A model generated the notes under the pieces. That model was given only the letters and a program-made list of their open reading frames with translations. It made no database searches and was not told where the DNA came from. Positions 28,876-45,969 of a stretch of 64,000 nucleotides of DNA are shown one piece after another (the first letter of the stretch is position 1; every line of letters starts with the position of its first letter). The stretch is from Desulfovirgula sp. (GTDB taxonomy: Bacteria; Bacillota; Desulfotomaculia; Desulfotomaculales; Desulfovirgulaceae), in contig DYEX01000155.1 in NCBI GenBank assembly GCA_020725525.1, positions 4,328-68,327 of the forward strand, read 5' to 3'. The position numbers and the translations under genes were made by a program.

Positions 28876-30285
28876 CTAAGCCTTCTTCTTCATTAAATAA
28901 TCGTGGATGGACCGGGCTGCGATTCGTCCGGCCCCCATGGCCAGGATAACCGTAGCGGCGCCGGTAACCACGTCGCCGCCGGCAAAGACACCGGGCTTGG
29001 AAGTGGCCCCGGTTTGCGGGTCGGCCACAATATTGCCTTTTTTGCCCAGCTCCAGGCCCCTGGTGGTCCTGGGTACCAGCGGGTTGGGAGCCTGGCCGAT
29101 GGCCACTACCACCGTGTCCACATCCATGACAAACTCGGAACCGGGGATGGGCACCGGCCGCCGGCGACCGGATTCATCGGGCTCGCCCAGCTCATAGCGC
29201 AGACACTCCATACCCTTCACCCAGCCGTTTTCGTCCGCCAGAATGCGTACGGGATTGGTTAAAAAGGCAAACTTGATTCCTTCTTCTTTGGCATGTTCCA
29301 CTTCCTCGTGGCGGGCGGGCAGTTCCTTTTCGGAACGCCGGTAAACAATCCAGGACTCTTCCGCCCCCAGCCGCAGGGCAGTACGGGCTGCGTCCATGGC
29401 CACATTGCCGCCGCCAATTACGGCTACTTTCCTGCCCACCTTGATGGGGGTATCCCACTCGGGGAAGAGGTAGGCCTTCATCAAGTTGGTCCGGGTGAGG
29501 AATTCGTTGGCGGAATAAACGCCGCAGGAATTCTCCCCGGGAATGTTCATGAAATACGGCAGGCCGGCACCGGTGCCGATAAATACGGCGTCAAAGCCCT
29601 CTTCCTCCATCAACTCATCCACGGTGGCAAACTTGCCAACCACCGCATTGGTGACGATTTCTACCCCCAGCTTTTTCAGGTTTTCTATCTCTGCCTGCAC
29701 CACCCGTTTAGGCAGGCGGAACTCGGGAATGCCGTACATGAGCACACCGCCGGCTACATGCAGGGCTTCAAAAACGGTCACCCTGTGACCCAGCTTGGCC
29801 AGGTCAGCAGCACAGGTAAGACCCGCCGGGCCGGAACCCACCACCGCCACTTTGAAACCGGTGGGCGGGGCCACCTCCTGGGGCAGCACACCCCGGGCCA
29901 GCTCCCAGTCGGCACAGAAACGTTCCAGACGCCCGATACCCACGGGCTCGTGCTTTTTGCCCAGCGTGCAGTATTTCTCACACTGGTTTTCCTGCGGGCA
30001 AACCCGGCCACACACGGCAGGGAGGGCATTCTTTTCCTTAATCTTTTTGATGGCGCCAGCAAAGTCCCGCTCGGCCACCAGCTTAATAAACGCCGGAATA
30101 TCTACCTCCACCGGACAACCCTGCCGGCAGGGTTCCTTTTTACACTGCAGGCAGCGCTTCGCTTCCGCCACCGCAGTTTCTTCGTCATAACCCAGGGCCA
30201 CTTCGTTGAAATTCCTGATCCGCTCAATGGGATCCTGGGCAGGCATCGGGTGTTTTTTGGGGATTATTTCCTTCTTCTCGGCCAT
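28876..30285 (-). CDS. nfnB: NfnB / homotetrameric GltA-like flavoprotein (large subunit of electron-bifurcating transhydrogenase)
   Basis: RCLQCKKEPCRQGCP, CGRVCPQENQCE, VGSGPAGL, IGGGNVAMD, AGGDVVTGAATVI; start overlaps nfnA stop (TAATG). Confidence 0.88.
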   Translation of the reverse strand: MAEKKEIIPKKHPMPAQDPIERIRNFNEVALGYDEETAVAEAKRCLQCKKEPCRQGCPVEVDIPAFIKLVAERDFAGAIKKIKEKNALPAVCGRVCPQENQCEKYCTLGKKHEPVGIGRLERFCADWELARGVLPQEVAPPTGFKVAVVGSGPAGLTCAADLAKLGHRVTVFEALHVAGGVLMYGIPEFRLPKRVVQAEIENLKKLGVEIVTNAVVGKFATVDELMEEEGFDAVFIGTGAGLPYFMNIPGENSCGVYSANEFLTRTNLMKAYLFPEWDTPIKVGRKVAVIGGGNVAMDAARTALRLGAEESWIVYRRSEKELPARHEEVEHAKEEGIKFAFLTNPVRILADENGWVKGMECLRYELGEPDESGRRRPVPIPGSEFVMDVDTVVVAIGQAPNPLVPRTTRGLELGKKGNIVADPQTGATSKPGVFAGGDVVTGAATVILAMGAGRIAARSIHDYLMKKKA

Positions 30286-31136
30286 TATTTGCCACCTCCA
30301 CATCCGCACTGGCATGTGTAACGCTCTAATGCCCGCTGTTCTTCCGGCCGGAAGGTGGCTGAACGACGGGCCAGTTCAGCAAAGTCCACCTGGTGGCCGT
30401 CAAACTCCGGACCATCCACACAAACAAACCTGGTCTGGCCGCCCACGGTCACCCGGCAGCAACCGCACATCCCCGTACCGTCCACCATCAGCGAGTTCAG
30501 GCTCACAATGGTTTTGATGCCGTACTCCCTGGTGACGTTGCAACAGGCCCGCATCATGGGCTGGGGACCGATGGCCAGCACCAGGTTGATGTTGTCCTTG
30601 CCCCGTTCGTCAATAATTTCTTTCAAGACATCGGTAACAAAACCCTTGCGCACATAGGAACCATCATCGGTGGTCACAAAAAGCTCGGTGGAAACTTCCC
30701 GCATCCGGTCTTCCCAGAACAGCAGTTCCCTGGTGCGGGCACCGATGATGCTGATCACGTGATTACCGGCCTCTTTCAACGCCCGGGCAATGGGGAACAC
30801 CGGAGCTATCCCTACACCGCCACCGACGCATATGACCGTGCCGAAGTTTTCAATGTGGGAAGGGGTCCCCAGAGGTCCGACAAAGTCTTTGATGTAATCT
30901 CCCGCTTCCAATGATCCCAGTTGTTTGGTGGTTTTGCCGACCTCCTGAAAGACGATGGTAATGGTACCCTTCTCCCGGTCAAAGTCCGCAATGGTCAGTG
31001 GAATACGCTCACCTTCTTCGTGAATGCGCAAAATAACAAACTGGCCTGGCTGACATTTCCTGGCTACCCTGGGTGCTTCAATAACCATTTGCTTGATAAT
31101 GGGTGAGAATACCTGCTTGTCTAAAATTTTGAACAT
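30285..31136 (-). CDS. nfnA: NfnA (sulfide/dihydroorotate dehydrogenase-like FAD/NAD-binding, 2Fe-2S)
   Basis: PGQFVILR, ERIPLTIAD, GGGVGIAP, MVDGTGMCGCCRV, CVDGPEFDGH. Confidence 0.9.
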   Translation of the reverse strand: MFKILDKQVFSPIIKQMVIEAPRVARKCQPGQFVILRIHEEGERIPLTIADFDREKGTITIVFQEVGKTTKQLGSLEAGDYIKDFVGPLGTPSHIENFGTVICVGGGVGIAPVFPIARALKEAGNHVISIIGARTRELLFWEDRMREVSTELFVTTDDGSYVRKGFVTDVLKEIIDERGKDNINLVLAIGPQPMMRACCNVTREYGIKTIVSLNSLMVDGTGMCGCCRVTVGGQTRFVCVDGPEFDGHQVDFAELARRSATFRPEEQRALERYTCQCGCGGGK

Positions 31137-31198
31137 GAATTCCCTTCCCCCTCCCTTAAACATAAATATGGAACTTTATTTAATGTAATTATCTTATT

Positions 31199-36394: not shown

Positions 36395-36572
36395 GGAAAT
36401 CCTCCCCCAAAACACGGCAAAACAAAAAATACTCAGGTTGCAATAAATTACAACCTGAACCGTTAGCCTGTTTATTATTTAACCTGATGTTATTATATTA
36501 AAATCTGCAGGCCCCGGAAATAGGGTAGACGCAAGTATACAATATTTCTGTTTAGTAATCCTCTTTACAGGC

Positions 36573-36683: not shown

Positions 36684-37055
36684 CTAGCTACATAGCAATC
36701 GCAATAAATGTTCAGGAAAGGTGGCCCGGGGATGTCTTGCTGCCAGGCGCCGCAGGCGCACCACTGCCGTGGCCACATCCAGTTCCTGGGGGCAACACCG
36801 GCTACACCGCCGGCAGCCGATACACGCCCAGAGAAAACGGGAAGTTAGCACTTCATCCAGCCGGCCGAGTTGCAATAGACGCAGCACGCGGGCAGGCGAC
36901 AGGTCCCGGATACGGGCAAGGCAGGCTCCACCACACCGTCCGCAGTTGGCGCAACTGCGGGCAGTACGAATAGTAACCGGATCAAGTCGTTCCAGATCCT
37001 GGAGAGTTATTTCCCTGAAGGGACGATCCTCATGCATGGGGATAACCTCCGGCAT
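36684..37055 (-). CDS. HdrC-like 4Fe-4S dicluster protein
   Basis: CANCGRCGGAC and LWACIGCRRCSRCCPQELDV; SPARVLRLLQLG typical of HdrC. Confidence 0.75.
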   Translation of the reverse strand: MPEVIPMHEDRPFREITLQDLERLDPVTIRTARSCANCGRCGGACLARIRDLSPARVLRLLQLGRLDEVLTSRFLWACIGCRRCSRCCPQELDVATAVVRLRRLAARHPRATFPEHLLRLLCS

Positions 37056-37059
37056 AAAT

Positions 37060-39387
37060 TCATTCTTTAAAAGGATTGGGACCTAATTCTTGAAGCTGCT
37101 TTACAAATCTTTTTATTGCTGCCACCAGGCTCTGTCCGTCCTCAATACCGGCAGTAAGCACCTGCACCCGCTCGGGTTCCACCAGCATGCGCTGCAAGGT
37201 TTCCCGCAAGTTGTTGACCCGGGATTCGGCCAGGGATGTACCCCGCCCGTAATGGCACTCCGTAGTACGGCAACCTACCACCAGTACACCGTCTATCCCG
37301 CTGAGCAGCGCATCATTGATCCAGCCTGCATTCACCGCTCCGGCACAGGGAACCCTGACCGCCAGTATATTAGCCCCATAGCTGGTCCCCCGGGTGCCGG
37401 CCAGATCCAGCGCCGGGTAAGCATCGTTGGCACATAAGAAAGCCAGTACGCAAGGTTGCTCATCCATGCTGCCCGTATCCACCGCTTCTATAAGTCCGGC
37501 CATCTCCCGGGAACTGAATCCCGGCAGGTAAATACATCTCAGGGGACATCCCCCCTGACAGATACCACATCCACGGCAGGCCAGTGGATTTACCGCCGGA
37601 TAACCGCCTGTATCAAAGCTGCAGGCACCGTAGGGACATTCCTCTACACAGCGCCCGCACCGGTCGCACTTGTGCCGCTCCACTACCGGTGGAACTACCA
37701 CAGACTGGTTCTGGATGGTAGCCAGACATTCCGCTGCTGCAGCCAGAGCGCTTTTGACGCTTGTACTCACATCCATCGGTTCCTGAGCACAACCGGCCAC
37801 ATAAATACCCGCACGCCGCACCTCCATGGGCGAACAGGGCAGGTGACCGGTAATGAAGCCGGTTGTGTCCTTTTCCAGGCGCTCAAAAGCCGGGACGGCA
37901 CAGGGTACCATACCGGTGGCCAGTACCACCAGTTCGGCCCGTACCGCTACCCGTGAGCCACTTAAGGTATCATCAGCCGTGACGACCAGTTCTTCTGCCC
38001 CAGGGTCCCATTCCACTGCATAGGGGTTACCCCGGATAAAAACTGCACCGTGTTCTTCCCGTGTCCGGCGGTACAGTTCTTCCAGGTTGCCCGGAGTACG
38101 GATGTCCATGTAAAAGACAAAAATGCCGGCCTCCGGCGCCACCGCCCGTACGTAATCAATTTGCTTTAATGTGGCCGCACAGCATACACTGGAACAATAA
38201 GCCAGGTGCTGTTTATCACGGCTGCCGGCACACTGGATAAAGGCCACCCGCCTTACGGGCTTTTTATCGTGAGGCCGGATTAACTGGCCACCGGTTGGTC
38301 CGTCCGGACGGGCCAGAACCTCCAAGTCCATGCTGGTAATTACTCCAGGCAAACGCCCGTAGCCGTAATTGTTAATCCGTCCGGCATCGTAAGGTTCCCA
38401 ACCCGCAGCCAGAATGATCGCGTCCACACCAATGCTCAGCCTGTCTTCCTCCTGGTCCAGGTCAATGGCCCCGGCCGGACAGACTTCCACACACCGGCTG
38501 CAGGATTTACCACGACAAAACACACGGTTGACGGCATAGTTAAGAGGATAGGGAAATAACCCCGGGCCTTCAATGGCCCGCTGCCTGCCCGGTGGCAATG
38601 CTGCGGAGGGTGCTACCTCCACCGGGCAAACCTCAAGGCAAGCACCGCACCCGGTGCAGGCATCCTTGACGTAACGGGGTTGTTTTAAAAGTTCCACCAT
38701 AAAGTTACCGGCGGTACCACGCACACCGGTTACCTCGGTCAAGGTGTGCACCGTTACCCTTCCCGTAGCCAGCAAACGCGCCATCAGTACCTCCAACCCA
38801 CACCGGGGTGAGCAAAAGCGCGGGTAATAGCGGTGCAACCGGGCCACCTTACCTCCCAGGAAAGGGGATTTTTCTACCAGCGTTACGTTAACCCCGGCCC
38901 GGGCCAGATTCTCTGCTGCGGTTAGTCCGGCAATACCTCCCCCGACTACCAGTACAGACCGGGAAGTTGAAGAACTAACCGGTTCAAAGGATTCTGCCGG
39001 GCTCAACCGCCCCACGGCCATTTTGAGTAGATTCCGGGCCTTTGCCATCGCCAGCGCCGGCTGGTCCCGGTGGGCCCTGGTGCACTGTTCCCTGAGGTTA
39101 CAGCGTTCCAGGAAGTGTTCGTTCAAGCCTGCCTGCCGTGCAAGACGAAGAAAGGTATCCCGGTGTACGGCTGGTGAGCATGCTCCAACCACTACCCGGT
39201 CTACACGCCCCTGGCGCACATCCTCAGCAATTATTTCCAGGCCGTCAGCGCTACATAACGCAGGATAATGGATGCTGGCAGCAACCCCGCGCCATTTGCC
39301 TGCCTGCTGGGATAATTTCTCCAGGTCAAGAATTTTACCAATTTCACCGTAACAATGACACAGGTAGACACCGATTTTTGGCGGCAC
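37060..39387 (-). CDS. HdrA/Qmo-like flavoprotein with ferredoxin and MvhD domains
   Basis: KIGVYLCHC, VGACSP, NLREQC; VGGGIAG FAD site; IQCAGSRD...YCSSVCC; C-terminal 2x CxxCxxC and MvhD (FLCANDAY, RVPCAG, GCRTTECHY). Confidence 0.88.
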   Translation of the reverse strand: MPPKIGVYLCHCYGEIGKILDLEKLSQQAGKWRGVAASIHYPALCSADGLEIIAEDVRQGRVDRVVVGACSPAVHRDTFLRLARQAGLNEHFLERCNLREQCTRAHRDQPALAMAKARNLLKMAVGRLSPAESFEPVSSSTSRSVLVVGGGIAGLTAAENLARAGVNVTLVEKSPFLGGKVARLHRYYPRFCSPRCGLEVLMARLLATGRVTVHTLTEVTGVRGTAGNFMVELLKQPRYVKDACTGCGACLEVCPVEVAPSAALPPGRQRAIEGPGLFPYPLNYAVNRVFCRGKSCSRCVEVCPAGAIDLDQEEDRLSIGVDAIILAAGWEPYDAGRINNYGYGRLPGVITSMDLEVLARPDGPTGGQLIRPHDKKPVRRVAFIQCAGSRDKQHLAYCSSVCCAATLKQIDYVRAVAPEAGIFVFYMDIRTPGNLEELYRRTREEHGAVFIRGNPYAVEWDPGAEELVVTADDTLSGSRVAVRAELVVLATGMVPCAVPAFERLEKDTTGFITGHLPCSPMEVRRAGIYVAGCAQEPMDVSTSVKSALAAAAECLATIQNQSVVVPPVVERHKCDRCGRCVEECPYGACSFDTGGYPAVNPLACRGCGICQGGCPLRCIYLPGFSSREMAGLIEAVDTGSMDEQPCVLAFLCANDAYPALDLAGTRGTSYGANILAVRVPCAGAVNAGWINDALLSGIDGVLVVGCRTTECHYGRGTSLAESRVNNLRETLQRMLVEPERVQVLTAGIEDGQSLVAAIKRFVKQLQELGPNPFKE

Positions 39388-39446
39388 TGTGTTCCCCCCC
39401 CCTGAAAACACCGGGGGCCGGCAACGGGCCGCCGGCCCCTAAATTC

Positions 39447-39770
39447 TTAGTCATTCCTGTTTTTAAAGGTGAAGCGTTCTACCTTACCGTGAATATCCAC
39501 AACAGTCCAGCTGATTTTATTGCTTCCAACCAGCGGAATAAGCTTGGCCGGGTAATAACCCAACTGGTAAGGTAGACGGGTTTCAATGGCTCCGTTGGGG
39601 CAGGCTTTCACGCAGGACATACAATCCCAGCAGTCCCGTGCCGAACGGCAATATGCCTTTCCATTATTTTCATCCAGAGCCATCAAATCCCCAGGGCATA
39701 TTTGTACACAAAGGGCTTCGCTTTCAGCACGGCAACCGTCACATTTTTGGAGATTAACCTTTGGCGGCAC
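39447..39770 (-). CDS. aprB: Adenylylsulfate reductase beta-like ferredoxin subunit (short form)
   Basis: KCDGC...CVQICPGDLM, DCWDCMSCVKACP...IETRLPY; adjacent to aprA-like gene. Confidence 0.85.
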   Translation of the reverse strand: MPPKVNLQKCDGCRAESEALCVQICPGDLMALDENNGKAYCRSARDCWDCMSCVKACPNGAIETRLPYQLGYYPAKLIPLVGSNKISWTVVDIHGKVERFTFKNRND

Positions 39771-39793: not shown

Positions 39794-41551
39794 TTATGGC
39801 CGGTAACGATCTCCAGGGATTATCTGTTCGTATGGCCTGGTAAATACTTCTATCTCGCCGGTTTGCGGGTTACGCCGGGAGTTGACGAAGCAATCGAAAC
39901 GGGTATCATCCCGCTCGGGGAAGTCCACCCTGTTCTGCCAGCCCGGCCAGCGGGTTTCCTCACGGAACAACAGGTGATGTACCAGCACTTCCGCTACATC
40001 CAGCCGGTCAATTATTTCATGAGCTTCCATTAGCTCGTGTAAATCGTGGGCTACAAGATACCTGGTTTGATCCTTCAAAATAGCCAGGTGTTTCAGGGCA
40101 TATTCCAGTCTTTCCCGGTTCATCCGGTAAAACTGGTGCACACCACCTGCATATTCGTCCATAAGCCGCTGGAGGCGTTCCTCCATTTCCCGCGGGATAA
40201 CACCATCCCCTTCCCGAACCTGCCTGATGGCCGGCGCATAAACCCGCGCCTTTTCCGCTGCCACAAGAGACTCATCCACCTGACCCCTGTCTGCCAGGGA
40301 TCCCAGGTATTCGATAGCCCCCCGGGCCGCCAGCATTCCTTCGGCAGCACAACCGCCGACAAACTTGTTCGGTACCCCACCGGCCACATCGCCGCAGGCA
40401 AAAAGACCGGGCAGGGTGGTAGCACGCTTAACATCAATCCAGTACCCGCTGGCCGTATGGCCTCCCACGATGTAGGGGTCGCTACCGTAGACCTCAATGG
40501 GCTCCCTGGTAATGTCCTGACCGCGGGCAGCCAGGAAGAGTACAAAGCTGGGACGCTCATTCAAATAATCTATTTTCAGGGTCTTGACCTGTTCCGGAGT
40601 CATATGACGGGTATCCACATAACAGGGACCCCTGCCGGCCAGCCATTCTTCCATCGGTGCGTTGGCCCGCACGAAACGAGGAGAAGCGTCACCGCCCATG
40701 TGAGCATACCGTTTGGCTAAAATTTTCTCCCCTTTGGCGTTAATCATAGGCGCTTTATAACCTACCGAAATGGTGTCAATGGGCCCGTTAAAATCCTTAG
40801 TACGCACAGCGCACCAGCGCATCTCGAAGGTGGTCATTTCCGCACCGGCCCGAATACCCATGGCATAACCGGTACCCACGTTAAAGGGGCAATACCAGAT
40901 CTGGTGGTGGCTATCAACGCCATCGTTGGTATAGGGTTTATATAGCCCGGCTGCTCCTCCGGTGGCCACAATGGTCGCTCCGGCTTTAATAATATAGAAC
41001 TTGCCGTCCCGGACACCAAACCCCATGGCGCCGATAACGCGGTCACCATCGAGGAGATAATTGGTGGCCACCACCCGGTTTAAAACTTCGCAGCCGTATT
41101 CCCGCACCTTCTCGGCCAGGATCACCTTCATCTCTGAACCCTGGATGGCAATATCCCAGCGCCCCCGGGCCAGGTATTCCCCGTTTTCGTCCTTTTTAAT
41201 GGGCAGGCCCCACTCTTCCCATTCTTCAATGGCCTGATTTAAAAGTTCGGCCATGGTAATGGTCAGGTCTTCCCGCAGGAGACCTCCTGCCTGGGCGCGG
41301 CTCCAGCGAACCAGGTTTTCCACGGTTTCGTTTTTCTTAATGTAAGTATTGATGGCATCCATGCCTGAGGCCAGGCAGCCGCTGCGATCGATGTGGGCTT
41401 TTTCCATCAGGGTGACCCGCAGATCGGGACGACGGCGCTTGGCCTCAATGGCAGCATAGCAGCCGGCGTTACCGGCACCGATAATCAAAATGTCAGTCTC
41501 AAGCCTTACCTCTCCCACCTCTTCAAGTTTCGCAGGCAGTTTTGCAGCCAT
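39794..41551 (-). CDS. aprA: Adenylylsulfate reductase alpha-like flavoprotein (divergent lineage)
   Basis: IIGAGNAG, RSGCLASGMDAIN, IWYCPFN, VRTKDFNGP, VGGH, LFACGD, REETRWPG. Confidence 0.85.
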   Translation of the reverse strand: MAAKLPAKLEEVGEVRLETDILIIGAGNAGCYAAIEAKRRRPDLRVTLMEKAHIDRSGCLASGMDAINTYIKKNETVENLVRWSRAQAGGLLREDLTITMAELLNQAIEEWEEWGLPIKKDENGEYLARGRWDIAIQGSEMKVILAEKVREYGCEVLNRVVATNYLLDGDRVIGAMGFGVRDGKFYIIKAGATIVATGGAAGLYKPYTNDGVDSHHQIWYCPFNVGTGYAMGIRAGAEMTTFEMRWCAVRTKDFNGPIDTISVGYKAPMINAKGEKILAKRYAHMGGDASPRFVRANAPMEEWLAGRGPCYVDTRHMTPEQVKTLKIDYLNERPSFVLFLAARGQDITREPIEVYGSDPYIVGGHTASGYWIDVKRATTLPGLFACGDVAGGVPNKFVGGCAAEGMLAARGAIEYLGSLADRGQVDESLVAAEKARVYAPAIRQVREGDGVIPREMEERLQRLMDEYAGGVHQFYRMNRERLEYALKHLAILKDQTRYLVAHDLHELMEAHEIIDRLDVAEVLVHHLLFREETRWPGWQNRVDFPERDDTRFDCFVNSRRNPQTGEIEVFTRPYEQIIPGDRYRP

Positions 41552-41624: not shown

Positions 41625-43133
41625 TCACCTCCATGTGACATACCCGCCCCAAACGGGTAAGCCGTTAACAGCATACCAGGGCATCATAACCAGCACAAAG
41701 TAAAGGAGAGTTGCCACCATGATCGGTATTCCTACTCTGGCGTAGGTCTTCGTGTCAAAAGTTCCCGTCCCGTAAGCAATCACACAGGCGGTTACCTGAG
41801 TGGGAACAAGGAAGGAGAAGGTGTCAAAATTCGCCACCAGCAAAGTAAAGGCTACCGGGTTTAAGTTAAGTACCCTGGACAGGGATATCAGTATCGGCGC
41901 CAGCATGGATACCGCAGCCACGTTGCTGAGCATAAATATCCTGACAAATGCGGTGAGCACGATGAAACCGACCACGATAACCAGGAAATGCTGTCCTTTA
42001 AAGTACATTCCGGCATACCCGGCAATCCACTCCGAAAGACCCGTAGCACTGATTGCGCTGGCCAAAGATAGTGCTCCGGCCAACAAAAGCCACGTTCCCC
42101 AAATGGTTTTGTTCTGTAACGTTTTCCATGGAGTGGGCAGCAACCCGGGTATAAAGAAAATTCCCAGGGCAATTAAGGTGGCCAGGCCTGTCTTTATCTT
42201 GTGCTGTGGTTCTGTGATCCAGAGCAGAACCGCAACAGCAAAGATTGCCAGTACAAGCCATTCTATAAAGCTCATTTTACCCATGTTTTTCTTCTCACAC
42301 TGAATGAAATCAGTTCCGCCGGGCACTGAGATTCCGCCCACATTCAACTGCTTCCTTATGATCAGAAACATAACAGGGAGCAGGCCTATAATCGGCCAGT
42401 GCAACCAGAACCACCTGGCATAATTTAACTGATACCCCAGCTCTTTTTCGAATAGACCGGCCATTATCACGTTGGGCATGTGGGCAGTGAGAAGCAGAAT
42501 TCCACCAACCATGGGGAAATAACACAGACCCGTTATAGCCAGTGCTCCCCTGGCCCTCCTGCCTTCAGGGGTTTCTTCAAACAATTCCATGATGCCCTTG
42601 ACAATGGGCAGGAGCACAGCCGACCTGGAAACCGCCGCCGGGATGATCAAGCTTAAAGCAATATTTACAGCCATTAACCCTTTGATCACCTGGTCAACGC
42701 GCGGCTTAACCCTGCTCAGTACGGCCAGGGCAATCCTTCTATCGAGACCGGTGCTCTGCATGATGGCGGCAAAAATGAAGGAACCCAGAACCAAAAAGGA
42801 TACGTCCTGACTAAAACCCCCAAAGGCCTGGGGAATTTTTTTCTGAGCACCAGTTAACACCAAAAGGAGCGGAATGAGCAGTCCCGTCACTCCAACCGGC
42901 ATTGCTTCGGTAATCCACATAATGACGGCCCAGACGGCTACCGCAGCCGCTGCCAATCCCGCAGGCTTTAACCCCGGCGGAACGGGTAAGGAAAGAATGA
43001 TGAAAAAGGCGATCCACGCTGCCACAAAACCAGGAAAAGCCGTGTTTGGATCCAGTCCTGCCTTTCTGGCATTCTCGACCATAAATCCGGGTACGAACCG
43101 TATGTACCACTTCAGATCGCCATTACCCCGCAT
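41625..43133 (-). CDS. DASS/SLC13 family anion permease
   Basis: MWITEAMPVGVT, TGLDRRIA, IIPAAVSRSA, TAHMPN, MLSNVAA, VPTQVTA, many TM segments. Confidence 0.88.
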   Translation of the reverse strand: MRGNGDLKWYIRFVPGFMVENARKAGLDPNTAFPGFVAAWIAFFIILSLPVPPGLKPAGLAAAAVAVWAVIMWITEAMPVGVTGLLIPLLLVLTGAQKKIPQAFGGFSQDVSFLVLGSFIFAAIMQSTGLDRRIALAVLSRVKPRVDQVIKGLMAVNIALSLIIPAAVSRSAVLLPIVKGIMELFEETPEGRRARGALAITGLCYFPMVGGILLLTAHMPNVIMAGLFEKELGYQLNYARWFWLHWPIIGLLPVMFLIIRKQLNVGGISVPGGTDFIQCEKKNMGKMSFIEWLVLAIFAVAVLLWITEPQHKIKTGLATLIALGIFFIPGLLPTPWKTLQNKTIWGTWLLLAGALSLASAISATGLSEWIAGYAGMYFKGQHFLVIVVGFIVLTAFVRIFMLSNVAAVSMLAPILISLSRVLNLNPVAFTLLVANFDTFSFLVPTQVTACVIAYGTGTFDTKTYARVGIPIMVATLLYFVLVMMPWYAVNGLPVWGGYVTWR

Positions 43134-43420: not shown

Positions 43421-44083
43421 TTAATCTATCCACTTAAGTAATTTTGCAGGTCGAATTTTTTTGATTTCACGCCCTTCCACGGTAATGGCCCCTTCTTGTT
43501 TAAATGTGTTTAAAAGGGTGGTAACAGTGGGACGAGAAGTGCCAATCATGCATGCAATTTCCTCATGGGTGAGGCGCAGGTTGATTTCTACCAGTTCCAT
43601 TTTTCCTGTTGTGTCTGTGCGTTCGGCCAGTTTAAGGAGCAGAAGAGCCAGCCGTCCTGCAACGGGCCAGGAAACAATTTCGTATATGGTGTTTTGGGCT
43701 TCCCGGATTCTCTTCCCCAGTATTTGCGCTATTTTTACCGCCAGGGCAGGTTTTGAGGTGAGGAGTTTAAGAAAGTCATCTCGTTTGAACACCAAAATAT
43801 TTACATCTTCCACGGCCTCGGCAAAACAGATACGCTCCATGCCGCACAAAGCCTCGGCCAGGCCAACAAATTCTCCGGGATGACGTAAAGCCACAGTAAC
43901 CCGGCGGCCGTCTCCGGCCAGGTAGTAAATTTTAATTAGCCCCTTCTGAACGAAATAAACCCTGTCTGCAACTTCCCCAGAGGAAAAAATTAATTGACCC
44001 CGGGGATAATCAATAGCCGTACCGTGACCCTTTAACTGCTCTTTTAACTGCTCATCCTCCAATCCTGCTTTTTTAACCTTCAT
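43421..44083 (-). CDS. Crp/Fnr family transcriptional regulator
   Basis: cNMP-binding fold (GQLIFSSGE, GEFVGL) and HTH LTHEEIACMIGTSRPTVTTLL. Confidence 0.93.
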   Translation of the reverse strand: MKVKKAGLEDEQLKEQLKGHGTAIDYPRGQLIFSSGEVADRVYFVQKGLIKIYYLAGDGRRVTVALRHPGEFVGLAEALCGMERICFAEAVEDVNILVFKRDDFLKLLTSKPALAVKIAQILGKRIREAQNTIYEIVSWPVAGRLALLLLKLAERTDTTGKMELVEINLRLTHEEIACMIGTSRPTVTTLLNTFKQEGAITVEGREIKKIRPAKLLKWID

Positions 44084-44329: not shown

Positions 44330-44725
44330 CTATCGCCTTGACCAGGCCCTTGTGATTGGAGGCAGAGGCCGTGCCCCAGAGGATTCCCAACACGTAGGCC
44401 CCGCCGCCCTTTGAAATACAGCGGCGGTCTTTTTGCACCTGGGGAGAAAATGACCGCACGCCTGTGCGTTCGGGTTGCCGCGGGAAAGCACTTTAAGGAG
44501 TCCCTCCTTCCCAGCCGATTTCATAACTTCCACAGCGTACAGGGTTTCCGGAACGGACTTTTCAAGGGTGCCATACCCGGGCAAGCCGACCACGCAACCC
44601 CACCGCACTTCTTCTCTCCCTTGGATTTTGATCAGGAATCGGCAGTCAGCACACCGCCTTATGGCCCTCTCCCGCATTTCCGGCAGGATGATGCGTTGGC
44701 CCTCCCACAGCCGGTTATCCCGCAT
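44330..44725 (-). CDS. YolD-like N-terminus fused to a Cys-rich region; DinB accessory candidate
   Basis: MRDNRLWEGQRIILPEMRE, then CADCRF...C...CGHF; start overlaps dinB stop. Confidence 0.55.
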   Translation of the reverse strand: MRDNRLWEGQRIILPEMRERAIRRCADCRFLIKIQGREEVRWGCVVGLPGYGTLEKSVPETLYAVEVMKSAGKEGLLKVLSRGNPNAQACGHFLPRCKKTAAVFQRAAGPTCWESSGARPLPPITRAWSRR

Positions 44726-45902
44726 ACCGCACACCCGCCTCAGTAAGGGAGGACGCCCTGAAAATTGCTCTCTCCCCGAACCTGTTCCGGATATAGTCGC
44801 AGGCTCGCTCGGCCCTGCCCCACTTTTCTCTTTCCCCGAAGAGGGTGAGCTGTTCCGCAGGCTTCAGGATCAGCCCGGCAAGGGTCACCCCCACCATGCG
44901 CACGGGCCAGCCCTCCGGCCAGTGCCGCGCCAGAAGGTCCACCGCCGCCCGGTAGATATCCGCGGCCAGGTCGGTGTGCGCGCGAAGGGTTTTCATGCGC
45001 GATAAATACGCAAAGCTGGCGTCCTTCAGGGAGAGCACCACAGTTTTGCCCGCGTACCCCCCGCTCCTTACCCTTTCGGCCACCTTCTCGACCAGCTCCA
45101 GGATGACCACCTTTATCTCCGCAAACCGGCGGTAGTCCCTGGGCAGGGTTATCTGCTGGCCGACGCTCTTGACCCTGTCCAGCGAATGGGGGTCGACGGG
45201 GCTTTCATCAATGCCGTTGGCGCACCGCCATAGAACCTCGCCGTAGACCCCGAACCGCATCTTTAGAATTTTCACCGGGAAGTTGGCAAGATCACCAATG
45301 GTATGGATGTTGAGCAACCTTAAGTGCCGCTCGTACCTGGGACCGACACCGAAAAGTTCCCTCACCGGCAGGGGCCACAGGCGGGCGGACACGTCTTCGT
45401 AGCCCAGGACCGTCAGGCCGTCCGGTTTCTGGAGTTCCGCTGCCATCTTGGCCAGGAGCTTGTTCGGCCCTATACCGATGCTGCACGTCACACCCACTTC
45501 ATCCCGTATGCGTTTTTTGAGGGCCAGGGCAATTTCCACCGGTGAACCGAAGAGCTTATGGCAGCCGGTGACGTCCAAAAAGGCTTCATCAATGGAAAAC
45601 GGCTCCACCAGAGGCGTGAAGTCCCGCATGATGCCCAGGATGCGGGTGGAAAAATTCACGTAGAGGTTGTGCTGGGGCTTCAAAAAGACGCCCTCGGGGC
45701 ACAGCTTCCGCGCTTCGTACACGGTTATGCCCGTCTTCACGCCCCTGGCCTTGGCCTCGTAGCTGGCCGCCAGCACCACCCCGTGGCGCTTTGCCGGGTC
45801 GCCGCCAACAATGACCGGTCTGCCTTTCAAAGCGGGGTCCAGCGCCTGGTGGACGCTGGCAAAAAAGGAGTTCATGTCGGCAAGGAGGATGGCCCTCTCC
45901 AA
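44715..45902 (-). CDS. dinB: Y-family DNA polymerase IV (DinB/UvrX-like)
   Basis: LADMNSFFASV, VLAASYEAK, FSIDEAFLD, SIGIGPNKLLAKMA, VGQQITL; TTG start at 45902. Confidence 0.93.
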   Translation of the reverse strand: MERAILLADMNSFFASVHQALDPALKGRPVIVGGDPAKRHGVVLAASYEAKARGVKTGITVYEARKLCPEGVFLKPQHNLYVNFSTRILGIMRDFTPLVEPFSIDEAFLDVTGCHKLFGSPVEIALALKKRIRDEVGVTCSIGIGPNKLLAKMAAELQKPDGLTVLGYEDVSARLWPLPVRELFGVGPRYERHLRLLNIHTIGDLANFPVKILKMRFGVYGEVLWRCANGIDESPVDPHSLDRVKSVGQQITLPRDYRRFAEIKVVILELVEKVAERVRSGGYAGKTVVLSLKDASFAYLSRMKTLRAHTDLAADIYRAAVDLLARHWPEGWPVRMVGVTLAGLILKPAEQLTLFGEREKWGRAERACDYIRNRFGERAIFRASSLTEAGVRYAG

Positions 45903-45922
45903 AACGAAAACCCCCCTGGACA

Positions 45923-45969
45923 AAACGGGTGTTTGGTATCATCTTAACCAAACACGCGTTCTTTGTCAA
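45923..45969 (-). promoter_or_regulatory. sigmaA promoter with two LexA (Cheo-type) SOS boxes
   Basis: TTGACA-N17-TAAGAT; GAAC-gcgt-GTTT (45950-45961) and AAAC-N4-GTTT (45923-45934). Confidence 0.72.

What the first reader, a model, noticed from the sequence alone, without database searches (positions are those of the whole stretch)
37060..39387. Single-chain QmoA/QmoB chimera
Seen: an HdrA-type N-terminal domain (KIGVYLCHC, VGACSP), a FAD core whose motifs look QmoA-like (LHRYYPRFCSPRCGLE; GWEPYDA...GPTGGQLIRP...IQCAGSRD...YCSSVCC), then a QmoB-like C-terminus (two ferredoxin clusters plus MvhD with ANDAYPALD). Established: QmoA and QmoB are normally separate HdrA paralogs. Inference: one polypeptide may replace the QmoAB pair as electron donor to AprA'B'.
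Basis: partly seen in the sequence, partly recalled or inferred. Interest (0 to 1): 0.62.

Follow-up and report, generated by a model that had tools for sequence, protein, structure and literature searches.

The report
HdrA-MvhD fusion partnering an APS-reductase-like enzyme
The gene is not a QmoA/QmoB chimera but an ordinary full-length HdrA-MvhD fusion flavoprotein, and it is notable because it always sits beside a little-studied APS-reductase-like enzyme and so is probably that enzyme's unidentified electron supplier.

Summary
Among QmoA, QmoB and methanogen HdrA references, the FAD core does score best against QmoA, and the C-terminus resembles QmoB. The chimera reading fails. The protein matches the HdrA2 (HdrA-MvhD fusion) profile end to end, and its model superposes on solved HdrA. 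Every segment is at least as close to other full-length HdrA-MvhD fusions. In bootstrapped trees QmoA and QmoB are sister clades (92-97%), and the window protein falls outside both; it never paired with QmoA alone in the one run that scored this (0/100). QmoA and QmoB each keep a complementary subset of the cofactor sites that this protein has in full, so the mosaic reflects their losses, not a fusion. The functional guess fares better. All 12 homologue look-ups, and all 6 metagenomic loci with enough flank, place this type of protein next to tail-less AprA'/AprB' genes. AprA' is closest to the methanogen PAPS reductase. The window operon is DASS transporter, AprA', AprB', HdrA-MvhD, truncated HdrC, with no HdrB. 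Canonical QmoAB coexists in related genomes. The likely role is a dedicated, possibly electron-bifurcating, donor module.

The parts
43421..44083 (-). Crp/Fnr-family transcription regulator, upstream of the operon
   Evidence: Pfam cNMP_binding plus HTH_Crp_2. A Crp gene accompanies the cluster in L001, L003, L084, L085, L087, L088, L172 and L173. A hairpin at 43394-43375 separates it from the DASS gene.
41625..43133 (-). DASS-family (Na+:sulfate/dicarboxylate symporter type) anion transporter, first gene of the operon
   Evidence: Pfam Na_sulph_symp E 3e-71. NCBIfam TIGR00785 at 234 bits, above its cutoff of 198.6.
39794..41551 (-). AprA' : short APS-reductase-like FAD subunit (585 aa)
   Evidence: NCBIfam NF005331 at 663 bits, above its cutoff of 557. 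The best solved relative is the M. thermolithotrophicus PAPS reductase alpha subunit 8a8o_A (562 bits), ahead of A. fulgidus AprA (355 bits). Catalytic residues are kept and pocket residues are changed.
39447..39770 (-). AprB' : 2x[4Fe-4S] subunit (107 aa) lacking the C-terminal tail of canonical AprB
   Evidence: Aligns to residues 1-105 of the 150-aa A. fulgidus AprB (94 bits) and to the 104-aa MtPAPSR beta subunit. TIGR02060 scores 98 bits, below its cutoff of 135.65.
39414..39439 (-). GC-rich hairpin between aprB' and the HdrA-MvhD gene, followed by a weak U tract
   Evidence: 11 pairs, 9 of them G-C, then CGGTGTTTTC. The folding energy is not exceptional for this composition (z -0.16). 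Its function is not shown.
38995..39387 (-). X: start codon and HdrA N-terminal domain (aa 9/10-139) with a [4Fe-4S] site
   Evidence: Cys18, 20, 53, 78 and 110 align with HdrA cysteines. The segment is closest to HdrA, at 104 bits.
38683..38994 (-). X: thioredoxin-reductase-like FAD domain, first part (aa 140-243)
   Evidence: GGGIAG Rossmann motif (Pfam NAD_binding_8 over aa 155-191). The FPRFCSPRCGLE motif is shared with QmoA and all related fusions.
38455..38682 (-). X: inserted ferredoxin domain, 2x[4Fe-4S] (aa 244-319)
   Evidence: Cys252/255/258/262 and Cys299/304/307/311. Pfam Fer4 hits.
37711..38454 (-). X: FAD domain, second part (aa 320-567), including the CxGSRD...CSxxCC cluster site
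   Evidence: Cys394/406/410/411 are invariant in HdrA, QmoA and the fusions and mostly lost in QmoB. The model's best full-length superposition is on HdrA chain 7bkd_A (TM 0.89 normalised to target); 0.93 is reached on the shorter ~428-residue chains 8rwn_A/8rvu_a, which cover only part of HdrA.
37468..37710 (-). X: C-terminal ferredoxin domain, 2x[4Fe-4S] (aa 568-648)
   Evidence: Cys582/585/588/592 and Cys612/615/618/622 are invariant. Pfam Fer4_21 over aa 577-628.
37060..37467 (-). X: fused MvhD domain ([2Fe-2S]) (aa 649-783) and stop codon
   Evidence: Pfam FlpD over aa 655-777, E 3e-38. Matches solved MvhD chains at E 1e-15 to 1e-19. Cys660/689/714/719 are invariant.
36684..37055 (-). HdrC' : truncated HdrC (123 aa), 2x[4Fe-4S] core only; no HdrB gene follows
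   Evidence: Aligns to residues 28-114 of 184-aa solved HdrC chains (E 1e-10). TIGR03290 covers positions 2-78 of 144. HdrC is 115-131 aa where HdrB is absent and 149-181 aa where HdrB follows.
36431..36460 (-). Terminator-like hairpin plus T run, probable operon end
   Evidence: 13-pair stem followed by ATTTTTTGTT. This is a consensus match only.

Best explanation
The gene encodes a complete, single-chain HdrA-MvhD fusion flavoprotein of the HdrA2 architectural type. Its parts are an N-terminal [4Fe-4S] domain, a thioredoxin-reductase-like FAD domain with its own [4Fe-4S] site, an inserted 2x[4Fe-4S] ferredoxin domain, a C-terminal 2x[4Fe-4S] ferredoxin domain and a fused [2Fe-2S] MvhD domain.

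It is not a fusion of QmoA and QmoB. It belongs to a widespread lineage of such fusions that, together with QmoA and QmoB, forms one clade of Apr-associated HdrA homologues. QmoA and QmoB are sister paralogues that each lost a complementary half of the cofactor sites this protein retains.

In the window it is co-transcribed (inferred) with a DASS anion transporter, a tail-less APS-reductase-like pair AprA'B' and a truncated HdrC, with no HdrB.

Proposed mechanism (inferred). Electrons enter HdrA through the MvhD domain and/or the ferredoxin domains and reach the HdrA FAD. They then pass through the two clusters of HdrC' to the two clusters of AprB' and on to the AprA' FAD. There they reduce an APS-like sulfonucleotide to sulfite. 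AprA'B' thus takes the place that HdrB holds in HdrABC as the high-potential acceptor, so the reaction may be coupled to ferredoxin reduction by flavin-based electron bifurcation.

Shown here: architecture, family placement, conserved gene linkage, cofactor-site conservation. Inferred: physical complex, electron path, substrate, bifurcation.
For: Architecture. End-to-end match to NF040770 HdrA2 (aa 12-779 against positions 1-774 of 777, 666 bits) and FlpD/MvhD. Solved HdrA 427 bits, MvhD chains E 1e-15 to 1e-19. AlphaFold model with mean pLDDT 92.3 and pTM 0.88, superposing on HdrA chains at TM up to 0.89 for full length. All HdrA and MvhD cysteine sites are present.

Not a chimera. Other full-length fusions equal or beat QmoA and QmoB in every segment. 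In the trees QmoA+QmoB are sisters at 96/92/97, X groups with the fusions at 88/84 (67 under the alternative distance), and X+QmoA appeared 0/100 times in the run that scored it. QmoA and QmoB themselves score best on the HdrA2 model.

Complementary loss. QmoA keeps Cys200/204, the inserted ferredoxin and the Cys394 cluster, but lacks the N-terminal domain, C-terminal ferredoxin and MvhD. QmoB shows the reverse pattern.

Linkage. AprA'-AprB' lies immediately upstream in D. salinus, D. audaxviator, Moorella naiadis, three Bacillota/Peptococcaceae MAGs, Desulfocucumis, a Nitrospirota genome, a Chloroflexota MAG and other contigs. The same holds in metagenome loci L093-L097 and L118. All Apr-linked HdrA homologues form one clade (bootstrap 100) that excludes HdrA from HdrABC contexts.

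Sulfur link. AprA' is closest to MtPAPSR and keeps N74, W234, R265, R317 and H398 in A. fulgidus numbering. The trio sits directly upstream of sat-aprBA, followed by qmoA and qmoB in L086 and by a qmoA-like gene cut by the locus end in L091. A NIR_SIR sulfite-reductase-like gene, a sulfotransferase and chromate-transporter genes lie nearby in L173 and L088.

Literature. The MtPAPSR authors state that an oxidase partner has not been identified (PMC10322725). HdrA-MvhD fusions are a recognised bifurcating Hdr subclass (PMC5296606).
Against: No experimental or transcript evidence was obtained; no RNA run holds the gene. The complex, electron path and bifurcation rest on gene order and analogy with HdrABC.

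No electron-input enzyme (hydrogenase, formate dehydrogenase) is encoded in the operon.

The AprA' pocket differs from both APS reductase and MtPAPSR: motif RG[RK]WD, plus Y95W, V273I, G274D and L278V. The substrate is therefore not established.

Some homologues lack the N-terminal and/or inserted ferredoxin domains, so not all clusters are essential. Moorella, Nitrospirota and Chloroflexota versions keep full HdrCB, so in those a disulfide may also be reduced.

The trees are neighbour-joining only, and taxa were sampled by similarity to the query. The HdrA2 match is below that model's curated cutoff (666 against 1100), so this is not an equivalog of Methanosarcina HdrA2.
Confidence: 0.65

Rival explanations
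1. One reading: a true chimera made by fusing or recombining a QmoA-type FAD core into a QmoB-type frame, so that one polypeptide equals QmoA plus QmoB.
For: Against QmoA, QmoB and methanogen HdrA only, the core scores best with QmoA (median 326 bits against 267 and 158), and the C-terminal half matches QmoB. The motifs FPxxCxPxCGLE and GWxPYDA are QmoA-like, and NDAYPALD and Cys526 are QmoB-like.
Against: The same motifs occur in all related full-length fusions, which equal or beat QmoA and QmoB in every segment. The core falls outside QmoA, which is monophyletic at 99-100 and sister to QmoB at 92-97. An exclusive X+QmoA clade appeared 0/100 times in the run that scored it (trees). The C-terminus falls outside the QmoB clade. 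The N-terminal domain and inserted ferredoxin are HdrA-like and complete.
Confidence: 0.03
2. Same complex, but a plain (non-bifurcating) electron wire. Reduced ferredoxin, or a donor docking on MvhD, feeds electrons through HdrA-MvhD and HdrC' to AprA'B' with no energetic coupling.
For: No second acceptor or donor enzyme is encoded in the operon. Family members that lack the N-terminal and inserted ferredoxin domains (559-634 aa) have fewer branches available. Reduction of an APS-type substrate by ferredoxin is strongly exergonic (couples quoted in PMC3333476).
Against: A complete HdrA with all cluster branches plus MvhD is elaborate for a simple wire. Characterised full HdrA modules, including the HdrA2 fusion, bifurcate (PMC5296606).
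Confidence: 0.27
3. The AprA'B'-HdrA module does not act on a sulfonucleotide. It reduces an organic anion (a dicarboxylate/tricarboxylate, or an organosulfonate or sulfate ester) imported by the adjacent DASS or Tct transporter.
For: DASS or TctABC carriers flank the module. AprA belongs to the fumarate-reductase flavoprotein superfamily. The pocket is remodelled relative to both APSR and MtPAPSR, with two new Asp residues. SsuA/NMT1-like binding-protein and sulfotransferase genes occur in L088.
Against: Residues that bind the sulfate group and catalyse in APS reductase are all kept. The nearest characterised relative reduces PAPS. The module abuts sat-aprBA in L086 and L091. DASS carriers near aprAB-like genes have been read as sulfate symporters (PMC8477390).
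Confidence: 0.15
4. The HdrA-MvhD gene belongs to an ordinary HdrABC-type disulfide reductase and merely lies next to AprA'B'.
For: Full HdrC and HdrB follow the gene in Moorella, Nitrospirota and Chloroflexota loci.
Against: HdrB is absent and HdrC is truncated in the window, D. salinus, D. audaxviator and several MAGs. Adjacency to AprA'B' held in every locus examined across phyla. HdrA from HdrABC-only contexts falls outside the Apr-linked clade (bootstrap 100).
Confidence: 0.05

Closest known systems
HdrA2 of Methanosarcina acetivorans HdrA2B2C2 (HdrA-MvhD fusion subclass; PMC5296606)
   Same: Same domain order from end to end: HdrA N-terminal domain, FAD domain, inserted and C-terminal ferredoxin domains, fused MvhD. 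Best NCBIfam hit, covering 774 of 777 profile positions.
   Different: The score of 666 bits is below the curated cutoff of 1100, so it is not an equivalog. Its partners are AprA'B' and a truncated HdrC instead of HdrB2C2. It is bacterial (Desulfofundulus-like). It carries the Cys200 and Cys526 signatures shared with Qmo proteins.
QmoA/QmoB of the QmoABC (or QmoAB-HdrCB) complex that donates electrons to dissimilatory AprAB (PMC3333476, PMC10504309)
   Same: HdrA-derived flavoproteins encoded next to an Apr-type reductase. They fall in the same Apr-linked clade (bootstrap 100) and share the motifs FPxxCxPxCGLE (QmoA) and Cys526 and NDAYPALD (QmoB).
   Different: One gene instead of two, with every cofactor site intact. 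It lies outside both the QmoA and QmoB clades. There is no QmoC or membrane anchor. It partners a tail-less AprB' and a short AprA'. It coexists with canonical QmoAB rather than replacing it.
HdrA plus MvhD of the methanogen MvhAGD-HdrABC complex (PDB 5odc, 8rvu, 7bkb)
   Same: Same fold (TM up to 0.89 over full-length HdrA) and the same cluster-binding cysteines. HdrC' matches the ferredoxin core of HdrC.
   Different: MvhD is fused. HdrB is absent. HdrC lacks its C-terminal ~70 residues. About 35-36% identity in the fold-search alignments.
AprAB-like complex (DiSCo paper, PMC8477390) and its characterised member MtPAPSR (PDB 8a8o; PMC10322725)
   Same: The neighbouring AprA'B' has the defining traits: a short alpha subunit, a beta subunit without the C-terminal tail, and sodium:sulfate symporter genes nearby.
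   Different: The PAPS-specifying residues of MtPAPSR (K120/R121/S122) are R/W/D here. The text passages I retrieved from both papers do not mention an HdrA-MvhD partner. The MtPAPSR authors call the enzyme stand-alone, with an unknown reductant.

Membership tests
QmoA | About 410-425 aa, HdrA FAD core only (no N-terminal domain, no C-terminal ferredoxin, no MvhD) | tested here: not met
   63 QmoA sequences from aprBA-qmoABC loci were selected within a 390-450 aa window (those checked individually are 412-425 aa) and align only to aa 143-569 of X. X has all three extra domains.
QmoA | Falls inside the monophyletic QmoA clade | tested here: not met
   QmoA is monophyletic at 99-100%. X lies outside it, and an exclusive X+QmoA clade appeared 0/100 times in the run that scored it.
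QmoA | Core motifs FPKLCPPxCGLE and CAGSRD..CSxxCC | tested here: met
   Cys200/204 and Cys394/406/410/411 are shared. They are equally shared by all related HdrA-MvhD fusions, so they are not diagnostic.
QmoB | N-terminal HdrA domain plus C-terminal ferredoxin plus fused MvhD | tested here: met
   QmoB aligns over aa 12-782 at about 32% identity.
QmoB | Degenerate core: no inserted ferredoxin, Cys200/204 absent, Cys394 cluster mostly lost | tested here: not met
   X keeps all of these sites. QmoB has Cys at 0% of the inserted-ferredoxin and Cys200/204 columns and at 30-40% of the Cys394-cluster columns.
QmoB | Inside the QmoB clade; gene follows qmoA and precedes qmoC or hdrCB downstream of aprBA | tested here: not met
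   QmoB is monophyletic at 100% and excludes X in the core and C-terminal trees. The window has no qmoA or qmoC, and the gene order is aprA'-aprB'-X-hdrC'.
HdrA-MvhD fusion (HdrA2 architectural class) | Complete HdrA followed by an MvhD domain in one polypeptide | tested here: met
   NF040770 positions 1-774 of 777. FlpD over aa 655-777. Structure model and fold search.
HdrA-MvhD fusion (HdrA2 architectural class) | Equivalog of Methanosarcina HdrA2 (score at or above the curated cutoff; HdrB2C2 partners) | tested here: not met
   666 bits against a cutoff of 1100. No HdrB is present and HdrC is truncated.
HdrA-MvhD fusion (HdrA2 architectural class) | FAD-dependent electron bifurcation | not testable with these tools
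   Only the FAD-binding motif and the cluster sites can be seen.
AprAB-like / MtPAPSR-type reductase (neighbouring genes) | Short AprA with catalytic N74, W234, R265, H398; AprB without the C-terminal tail | tested here: met
AprAB-like / MtPAPSR-type reductase (neighbouring genes) | PAPS-specifying loop residues K120/R121/S122 of MtPAPSR | tested here: not met
   The window has R/W/D at these positions, a pattern conserved as RG[RK]WD in close homologues.

The most novel reading that the evidence does not exclude
Single-chain HdrA-MvhD proteins of this type represent the unduplicated form from which QmoA and QmoB arose by duplication and complementary loss of cofactor sites. The AprA'B'-HdrA/MvhD-HdrC' operon encodes a soluble, flavin-based electron-bifurcating reductase in which an APS-reductase-like enzyme, instead of HdrB, is the high-potential acceptor. 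This would give bacteria a membrane-independent, ferredoxin-generating route for reducing APS or a related sulfonucleotide. It would also identify the long-sought type of redox partner for MtPAPSR-like enzymes.
Probability: 0.3. Interest if true: 0.75.

Novelty: new variant of a known kind. Interest (0 to 1): 0.5.

Why it matters
How electrons reach APS reductase, and whether that step conserves energy, is an old open question for sulfate reducers. Ramos et al. (PMC3333476) could not show quinol-driven APS reduction and invoked bifurcation or confurcation by QmoAB.

This operon offers a simpler, fully soluble system. It has one complete HdrA-MvhD, a two-cluster HdrC core and a tail-less AprB'A', and it is conserved across Bacillota, Nitrospirota, Chloroflexota and others. 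That makes it amenable to heterologous expression and cryo-EM.

It also names a candidate partner class for the AprAB-like/MtPAPSR enzymes, whose reductant is unknown. And it gives a concrete scenario for the origin of QmoA and QmoB, namely subfunctionalisation of one full-length ancestor.

If none of that holds, the gene is simply another HdrA-MvhD fusion.

Tried and rejected
1. Chimera hypothesis: rejected by segment comparisons and trees.

2. NCBIfam has no QmoA or QmoB models. Canonical QmoA and QmoB also hit HdrA2 best, so family HMMs could not discriminate. I built reference sets instead, from 80 aprBA loci found with solved AprA sequences.

3. The PDB holds no Qmo structure.

4. Transcript evidence: no RNA run holds the gene, and the DNA runs are genomes or metagenomes only.

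5. The metagenome scan with the family alignment mostly returned canonical qmoAB loci and HdrABC loci, because the conserved patterns are shared. Only 8 loci were of the X type, and 6 of those had usable upstream flank.

6. Literature searches found no description of an AprAB-like plus HdrA-MvhD module. The absence holds only for the library searched and the passages read.

7. The aprB'-X hairpin is not more stable than shuffled sequence (z -0.16), so no regulatory claim is made.

8. No ML tree software was available in the sandbox. Only NJ with two distance measures was run.

9. Multimer structure prediction was not possible with the tools.

10. I did not verify that this genome itself carries canonical qmoAB. 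Desulfofundulus was not among the top 120 QmoA hits. Coexistence is shown only for relatives.
Full report
**What is there.**
The finding corresponds to one ORF on the minus strand, 37060..39411 (783 aa, GTG) in the mechanical ORF list. A run of nine G (39402-39394) lies 6 nt upstream of it. The 39411 GTG lies in the U-rich tail of a GC hairpin at 39439-39414. Residues 1-7 of the long form are the only low-confidence stretch of the structure model. All quoted motifs are present at the stated places.

**Domain content.**
- Pfam finds a Rossmann FAD motif at aa 152-192, Fer4 motifs at aa 245-320 and 575-628, and FlpD/MvhD at aa 655-777 (E 3e-38).
- NCBIfam aligns aa 12-779 to positions 1-774 of the 777-position HdrA2 model NF040770. 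The score is 666 bits, below the curated cutoff of 1100. The HdrA models score 496 and 446 bits.
- Solved HdrA chains (5odc, 8rvu, 7bkb, 9sfi) match aa 10-645 at up to 428 bits. Solved MvhD chains match aa 650-783 at E 1e-15 to 1e-19.
- An AlphaFold2 model built on 54 homologues has mean pLDDT 92.3 and pTM 0.88. It superposes on full-length HdrA at a target-normalised TM of up to 0.89, 2.6 Angstrom over 665 columns.
- All cysteines of the HdrA N-terminal cluster, the core CxGSRD..CSxxCC cluster, both ferredoxin domains and the MvhD [2Fe-2S] site are present.

The protein is therefore a complete HdrA with a fused MvhD. This architecture is already described for Methanosarcina, Archaeoglobus and diverse bacteria (PMC5296606; PMC2702500).

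**Testing the chimera idea: references.**
Neither NCBIfam nor the PDB holds QmoA or QmoB references. I therefore rebuilt the D. gigas and A. fulgidus AprA sequences from the PDB alignments. With them I fetched 80 canonical apr loci from species genomes. From these I extracted 63 QmoA and 63 QmoB sequences lying downstream of aprBA.

**Testing the chimera idea: segment scores.**

| Segment | QmoA | Methanogen HdrA | QmoB |
|---|---|---|---|
| Core 140-560 | median 326 bits, 40% id | 267 bits | median 158 bits |
| N-terminal domain (aa 10-139) | - | 104 bits | median 52 bits |
| C-terminal part | - | - | median 169 bits |

But the 120 best database homologues of the whole protein are mostly 750-850-aa HdrA-MvhD fusions. 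Even the more distant ones (38-47% identity) equal or exceed QmoA, QmoB and HdrA in every segment.

**Testing the chimera idea: trees.**
I built neighbour-joining trees of the FAD core, excluding the inserted ferredoxin, with 100 bootstraps and methanogen HdrA as root.
- QmoA is monophyletic at 100 and QmoB at 100.
- QmoA and QmoB are sisters at 96.
- The window protein's family plus the other fusions group at 88.

A second distance measure on gap-filtered columns gave QmoA+QmoB at 92, the fusion group at 67, and an exclusive X+QmoA grouping in 0 of 100 replicates. The C-terminal tree places QmoB (100) apart from the window family.

**Why the mosaic appears.**
The cysteine map explains it.
- QmoA retains Cys200/204, the inserted ferredoxin (about 85%) and the Cys394/406/410/411 cluster (100%). 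It lacks the N-terminal domain, the C-terminal ferredoxin and MvhD.
- QmoB retains three N-terminal cysteines, Cys526, the C-terminal ferredoxin and MvhD. It has lost Cys200/204, the inserted ferredoxin and mostly the Cys394 cluster.

The window protein has everything. QmoA and QmoB look like complementary degenerate copies of a protein of this kind, not its parents.

**Context.**
The gene lies in an apparent operon on the minus strand:
1. a Crp/Fnr regulator (43421-44083), then a hairpin;
2. a DASS transporter (41625-43133);
3. AprA' (39794-41551);
4. AprB' (39447-39770);
5. the HdrA-MvhD gene;
6. a 123-aa HdrC-like protein (36684-37055);
7. a terminator-like site at 36460-36431.

The neighbouring proteins have these properties.
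- AprA' (585 aa) is closest to the alpha subunit of the M. thermolithotrophicus PAPS reductase (8a8o, 562 bits), ahead of A. fulgidus AprA (355 bits).
- AprB' (107 aa) matches residues 1-105 of canonical AprB and lacks its tail.
- HdrC' matches residues 28-114 of 184-aa HdrC, that is the two-cluster core only.
- No HdrB gene is present.

**Conservation of the linkage.**
The organism is a close relative of Desulfofundulus salinus, at 97% identity with identical gene order. All 12 homologues whose contigs I looked up lie immediately downstream of an AprA'/AprB'-type pair.

| Source |
|---|
| D. audaxviator |
| D. salinus |
| Moorella naiadis |
| Bacillota and Peptococcaceae MAGs |
| Nitrospirota genome |
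| An apparently archaeal contig |
| A contig with TctABC |
| Desulfocucumis palustris |
| An unassigned contig |
| Chloroflexota MAG |

The six X-type metagenome loci with enough flank show the same linkage.

The HdrC/HdrB pattern varies with the locus. HdrB follows only in some loci, and there HdrC is 149-181 aa. Where HdrB is absent, HdrC is 115-131 aa.

I then added eleven HdrA sequences from HdrABC-only contexts. All Apr-linked proteins (this family, QmoA and QmoB) still formed one clade with bootstrap 100 that excluded them.

Canonical Qmo proteins coexist with this protein.
- In L086 the AprA'-AprB'-HdrA/MvhD trio is directly upstream of sat-aprB-aprA-qmoA-qmoB. In L091 the same order runs as far as a qmoA-like gene that is cut by the end of the locus.
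- Canonical QmoA occurs in Desulfovirgula.
- Canonical QmoA also occurs on the same 574,718-bp contig as the L085 homologue.

**What AprA' may do.**
In A. fulgidus numbering, N74, W234, R265, R317 and H398 are kept. The pocket differs from both characterised types. The motif at positions 141-145 is RG[RK]WD, against EG[RQ]WQ in APS reductases and RGKRS in MtPAPSR. There are also the changes Y95W, V273I, G274D and L278V. My list of which positions matter comes partly from PMC10322725 and partly from my own memory of the A. fulgidus structures. An Asp at the position where MtPAPSR places Ser122 argues against PAPS. APS or a related compound is plausible but unproven.

The 'AprAB-like complex' has been reported in 63 organisms and was proposed to serve sulfur assimilation (PMC8477390). 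MtPAPSR is its only characterised member, and its authors state that a partner oxidase has not been identified. In the passages I retrieved, neither paper mentions the HdrA-MvhD neighbour.

**Mechanism proposed (inference).**
The model is by analogy with MvhAGD-HdrABC, where HdrC wires the HdrA flavin to HdrB. Here the truncated HdrC' would wire the HdrA FAD to AprB' and then to the AprA' FAD, so AprA'B' replaces HdrB as the exergonic acceptor. Reference couples: APS/sulfite has E0' of about -60 mV (quoted in PMC3333476), and I recall the heterodisulfide couple as less positive, but no tool result or paper read here gives that value. The MvhD domain and the ferredoxin domains would serve as the entry point and the low-potential exit. 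Bifurcation is plausible but untested. A plain ferredoxin-to-AprA'B' wire is the main rival.

**Verdict.**
- The chimera interpretation is refuted.
- The electron-donor inference is supported by conserved synteny, with the correction that the protein accompanies QmoAB rather than replacing it.
- The protein itself is a new member of a known architectural class.
- Its obligatory pairing with AprAB-like enzymes and a truncated HdrC, and its relation to the origin of QmoA and QmoB, make the module a new variant worth experimental follow-up.

Noticed in passing
window 39387-39439 (- strand): A GC hairpin (39439-39414) with a weak U tail lies between aprB' and the HdrA-MvhD gene, followed by a G9 run (39402-39394) 6 nt before GTG 39387. 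The ORF-list start at 39411 lies in the hairpin tail. The hairpin might attenuate read-through so that AprA'B' exceeds HdrA in amount. Its stability is not exceptional (z -0.16).
   Followed up: partly
window 39794-41551 (AprA'); also L001, L003, L084, L085, L087, L088, L090: The AprA' substrate pocket carries a conserved motif RG[RK]WD, plus Y95W, V273I, G274D and L278V (A. fulgidus numbering). This differs from both APS reductases (EG[RQ]WQ) and the methanogen PAPS reductase (RGKRS). The AprA' of L086 and L091 has an intermediate RGKWN.
   Followed up: partly
L089:3002-8463: An apparently archaeal contig (it carries RadA and MptE-like genes) has a canonical-type AprA (EGRWQ pocket, 623 aa) and a tailed AprB. 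Next to them are a 122-aa ferredoxin and a single 820-aa HdrA-MvhD (P0076), with no QmoA gene. P0076 and P0073 branch beside the Qmo clades (sister to QmoB in the C-terminal tree, bootstrap 100). This may be a single-chain 'Qmo' serving a genuine APS reductase.
   Followed up: partly
L086:4740-16376 and L091:3784-14394: In a Bacillota MAG (L086) the AprA'-AprB'-HdrA/MvhD trio lies immediately upstream of sat-aprB-aprA-qmoA-qmoB. In Desulfocucumis palustris (L091) the same order runs as far as a qmoA-like gene cut by the locus end. A CxxCxxCC-domain gene lies upstream in both loci.
   Followed up: partly
P0013, P0015-18 (626-634 aa); P0024, P0025, P0034, P0038, P0039, P0045, P0046, P0054 (559-570 aa); P0072 (700 aa): Close relatives of the window protein (49-55% identity) have lost the N-terminal domain, or both the N-terminal domain and the inserted ferredoxin. 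In the two cases checked (P0015 and P0072) they remain next to AprA'B'. Domain loss therefore also happens inside this family.
   Followed up: partly
L084, L088, L173 against window, L001, L003, L085, L087: HdrC is 149-181 aa where an HdrB (CCG-domain) gene follows, and 115-131 aa where HdrB is absent. This suggests the C-terminal HdrB-contacting part of HdrC was lost together with HdrB.
   Followed up: partly
L173:7993-12669 and L088:10007-12263: Downstream of the module in the Chloroflexota and Nitrospirota loci are chromate-transporter-family genes, a sulfotransferase (L088) and a NIR_SIR sulfite-reductase-like gene (L173). An NMT1/SsuA-like binding protein lies upstream in L088.
   Followed up: no
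window 28876-31163 (- strand): An NfnAB-like pair lies about 6 kb downstream of the operon: a GltD-like 479-aa protein and a 292-aa protein. I identified both by inspecting the translations; only the 283-aa D. salinus (L003) counterpart of the smaller protein has Pfam hits, NAD_binding_1 plus DHODB_Fe-S_bind. Between the pair and the operon are pyruvate carboxylase/biotin carboxylase, Asp23 and NusB genes. The order is conserved in D. salinus.
   Followed up: no
window 44330-45923 (- strand): A DinB-like DNA polymerase IV gene (identified by inspecting the translation; not scanned against Pfam or NCBIfam) and a 134-aa ORF lie between the Crp regulator and the SpoIIIA region. The D. salinus locus L003 has SpoIIIAH directly next to Crp, so this is a small local difference between the two genomes.
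   Followed up: no
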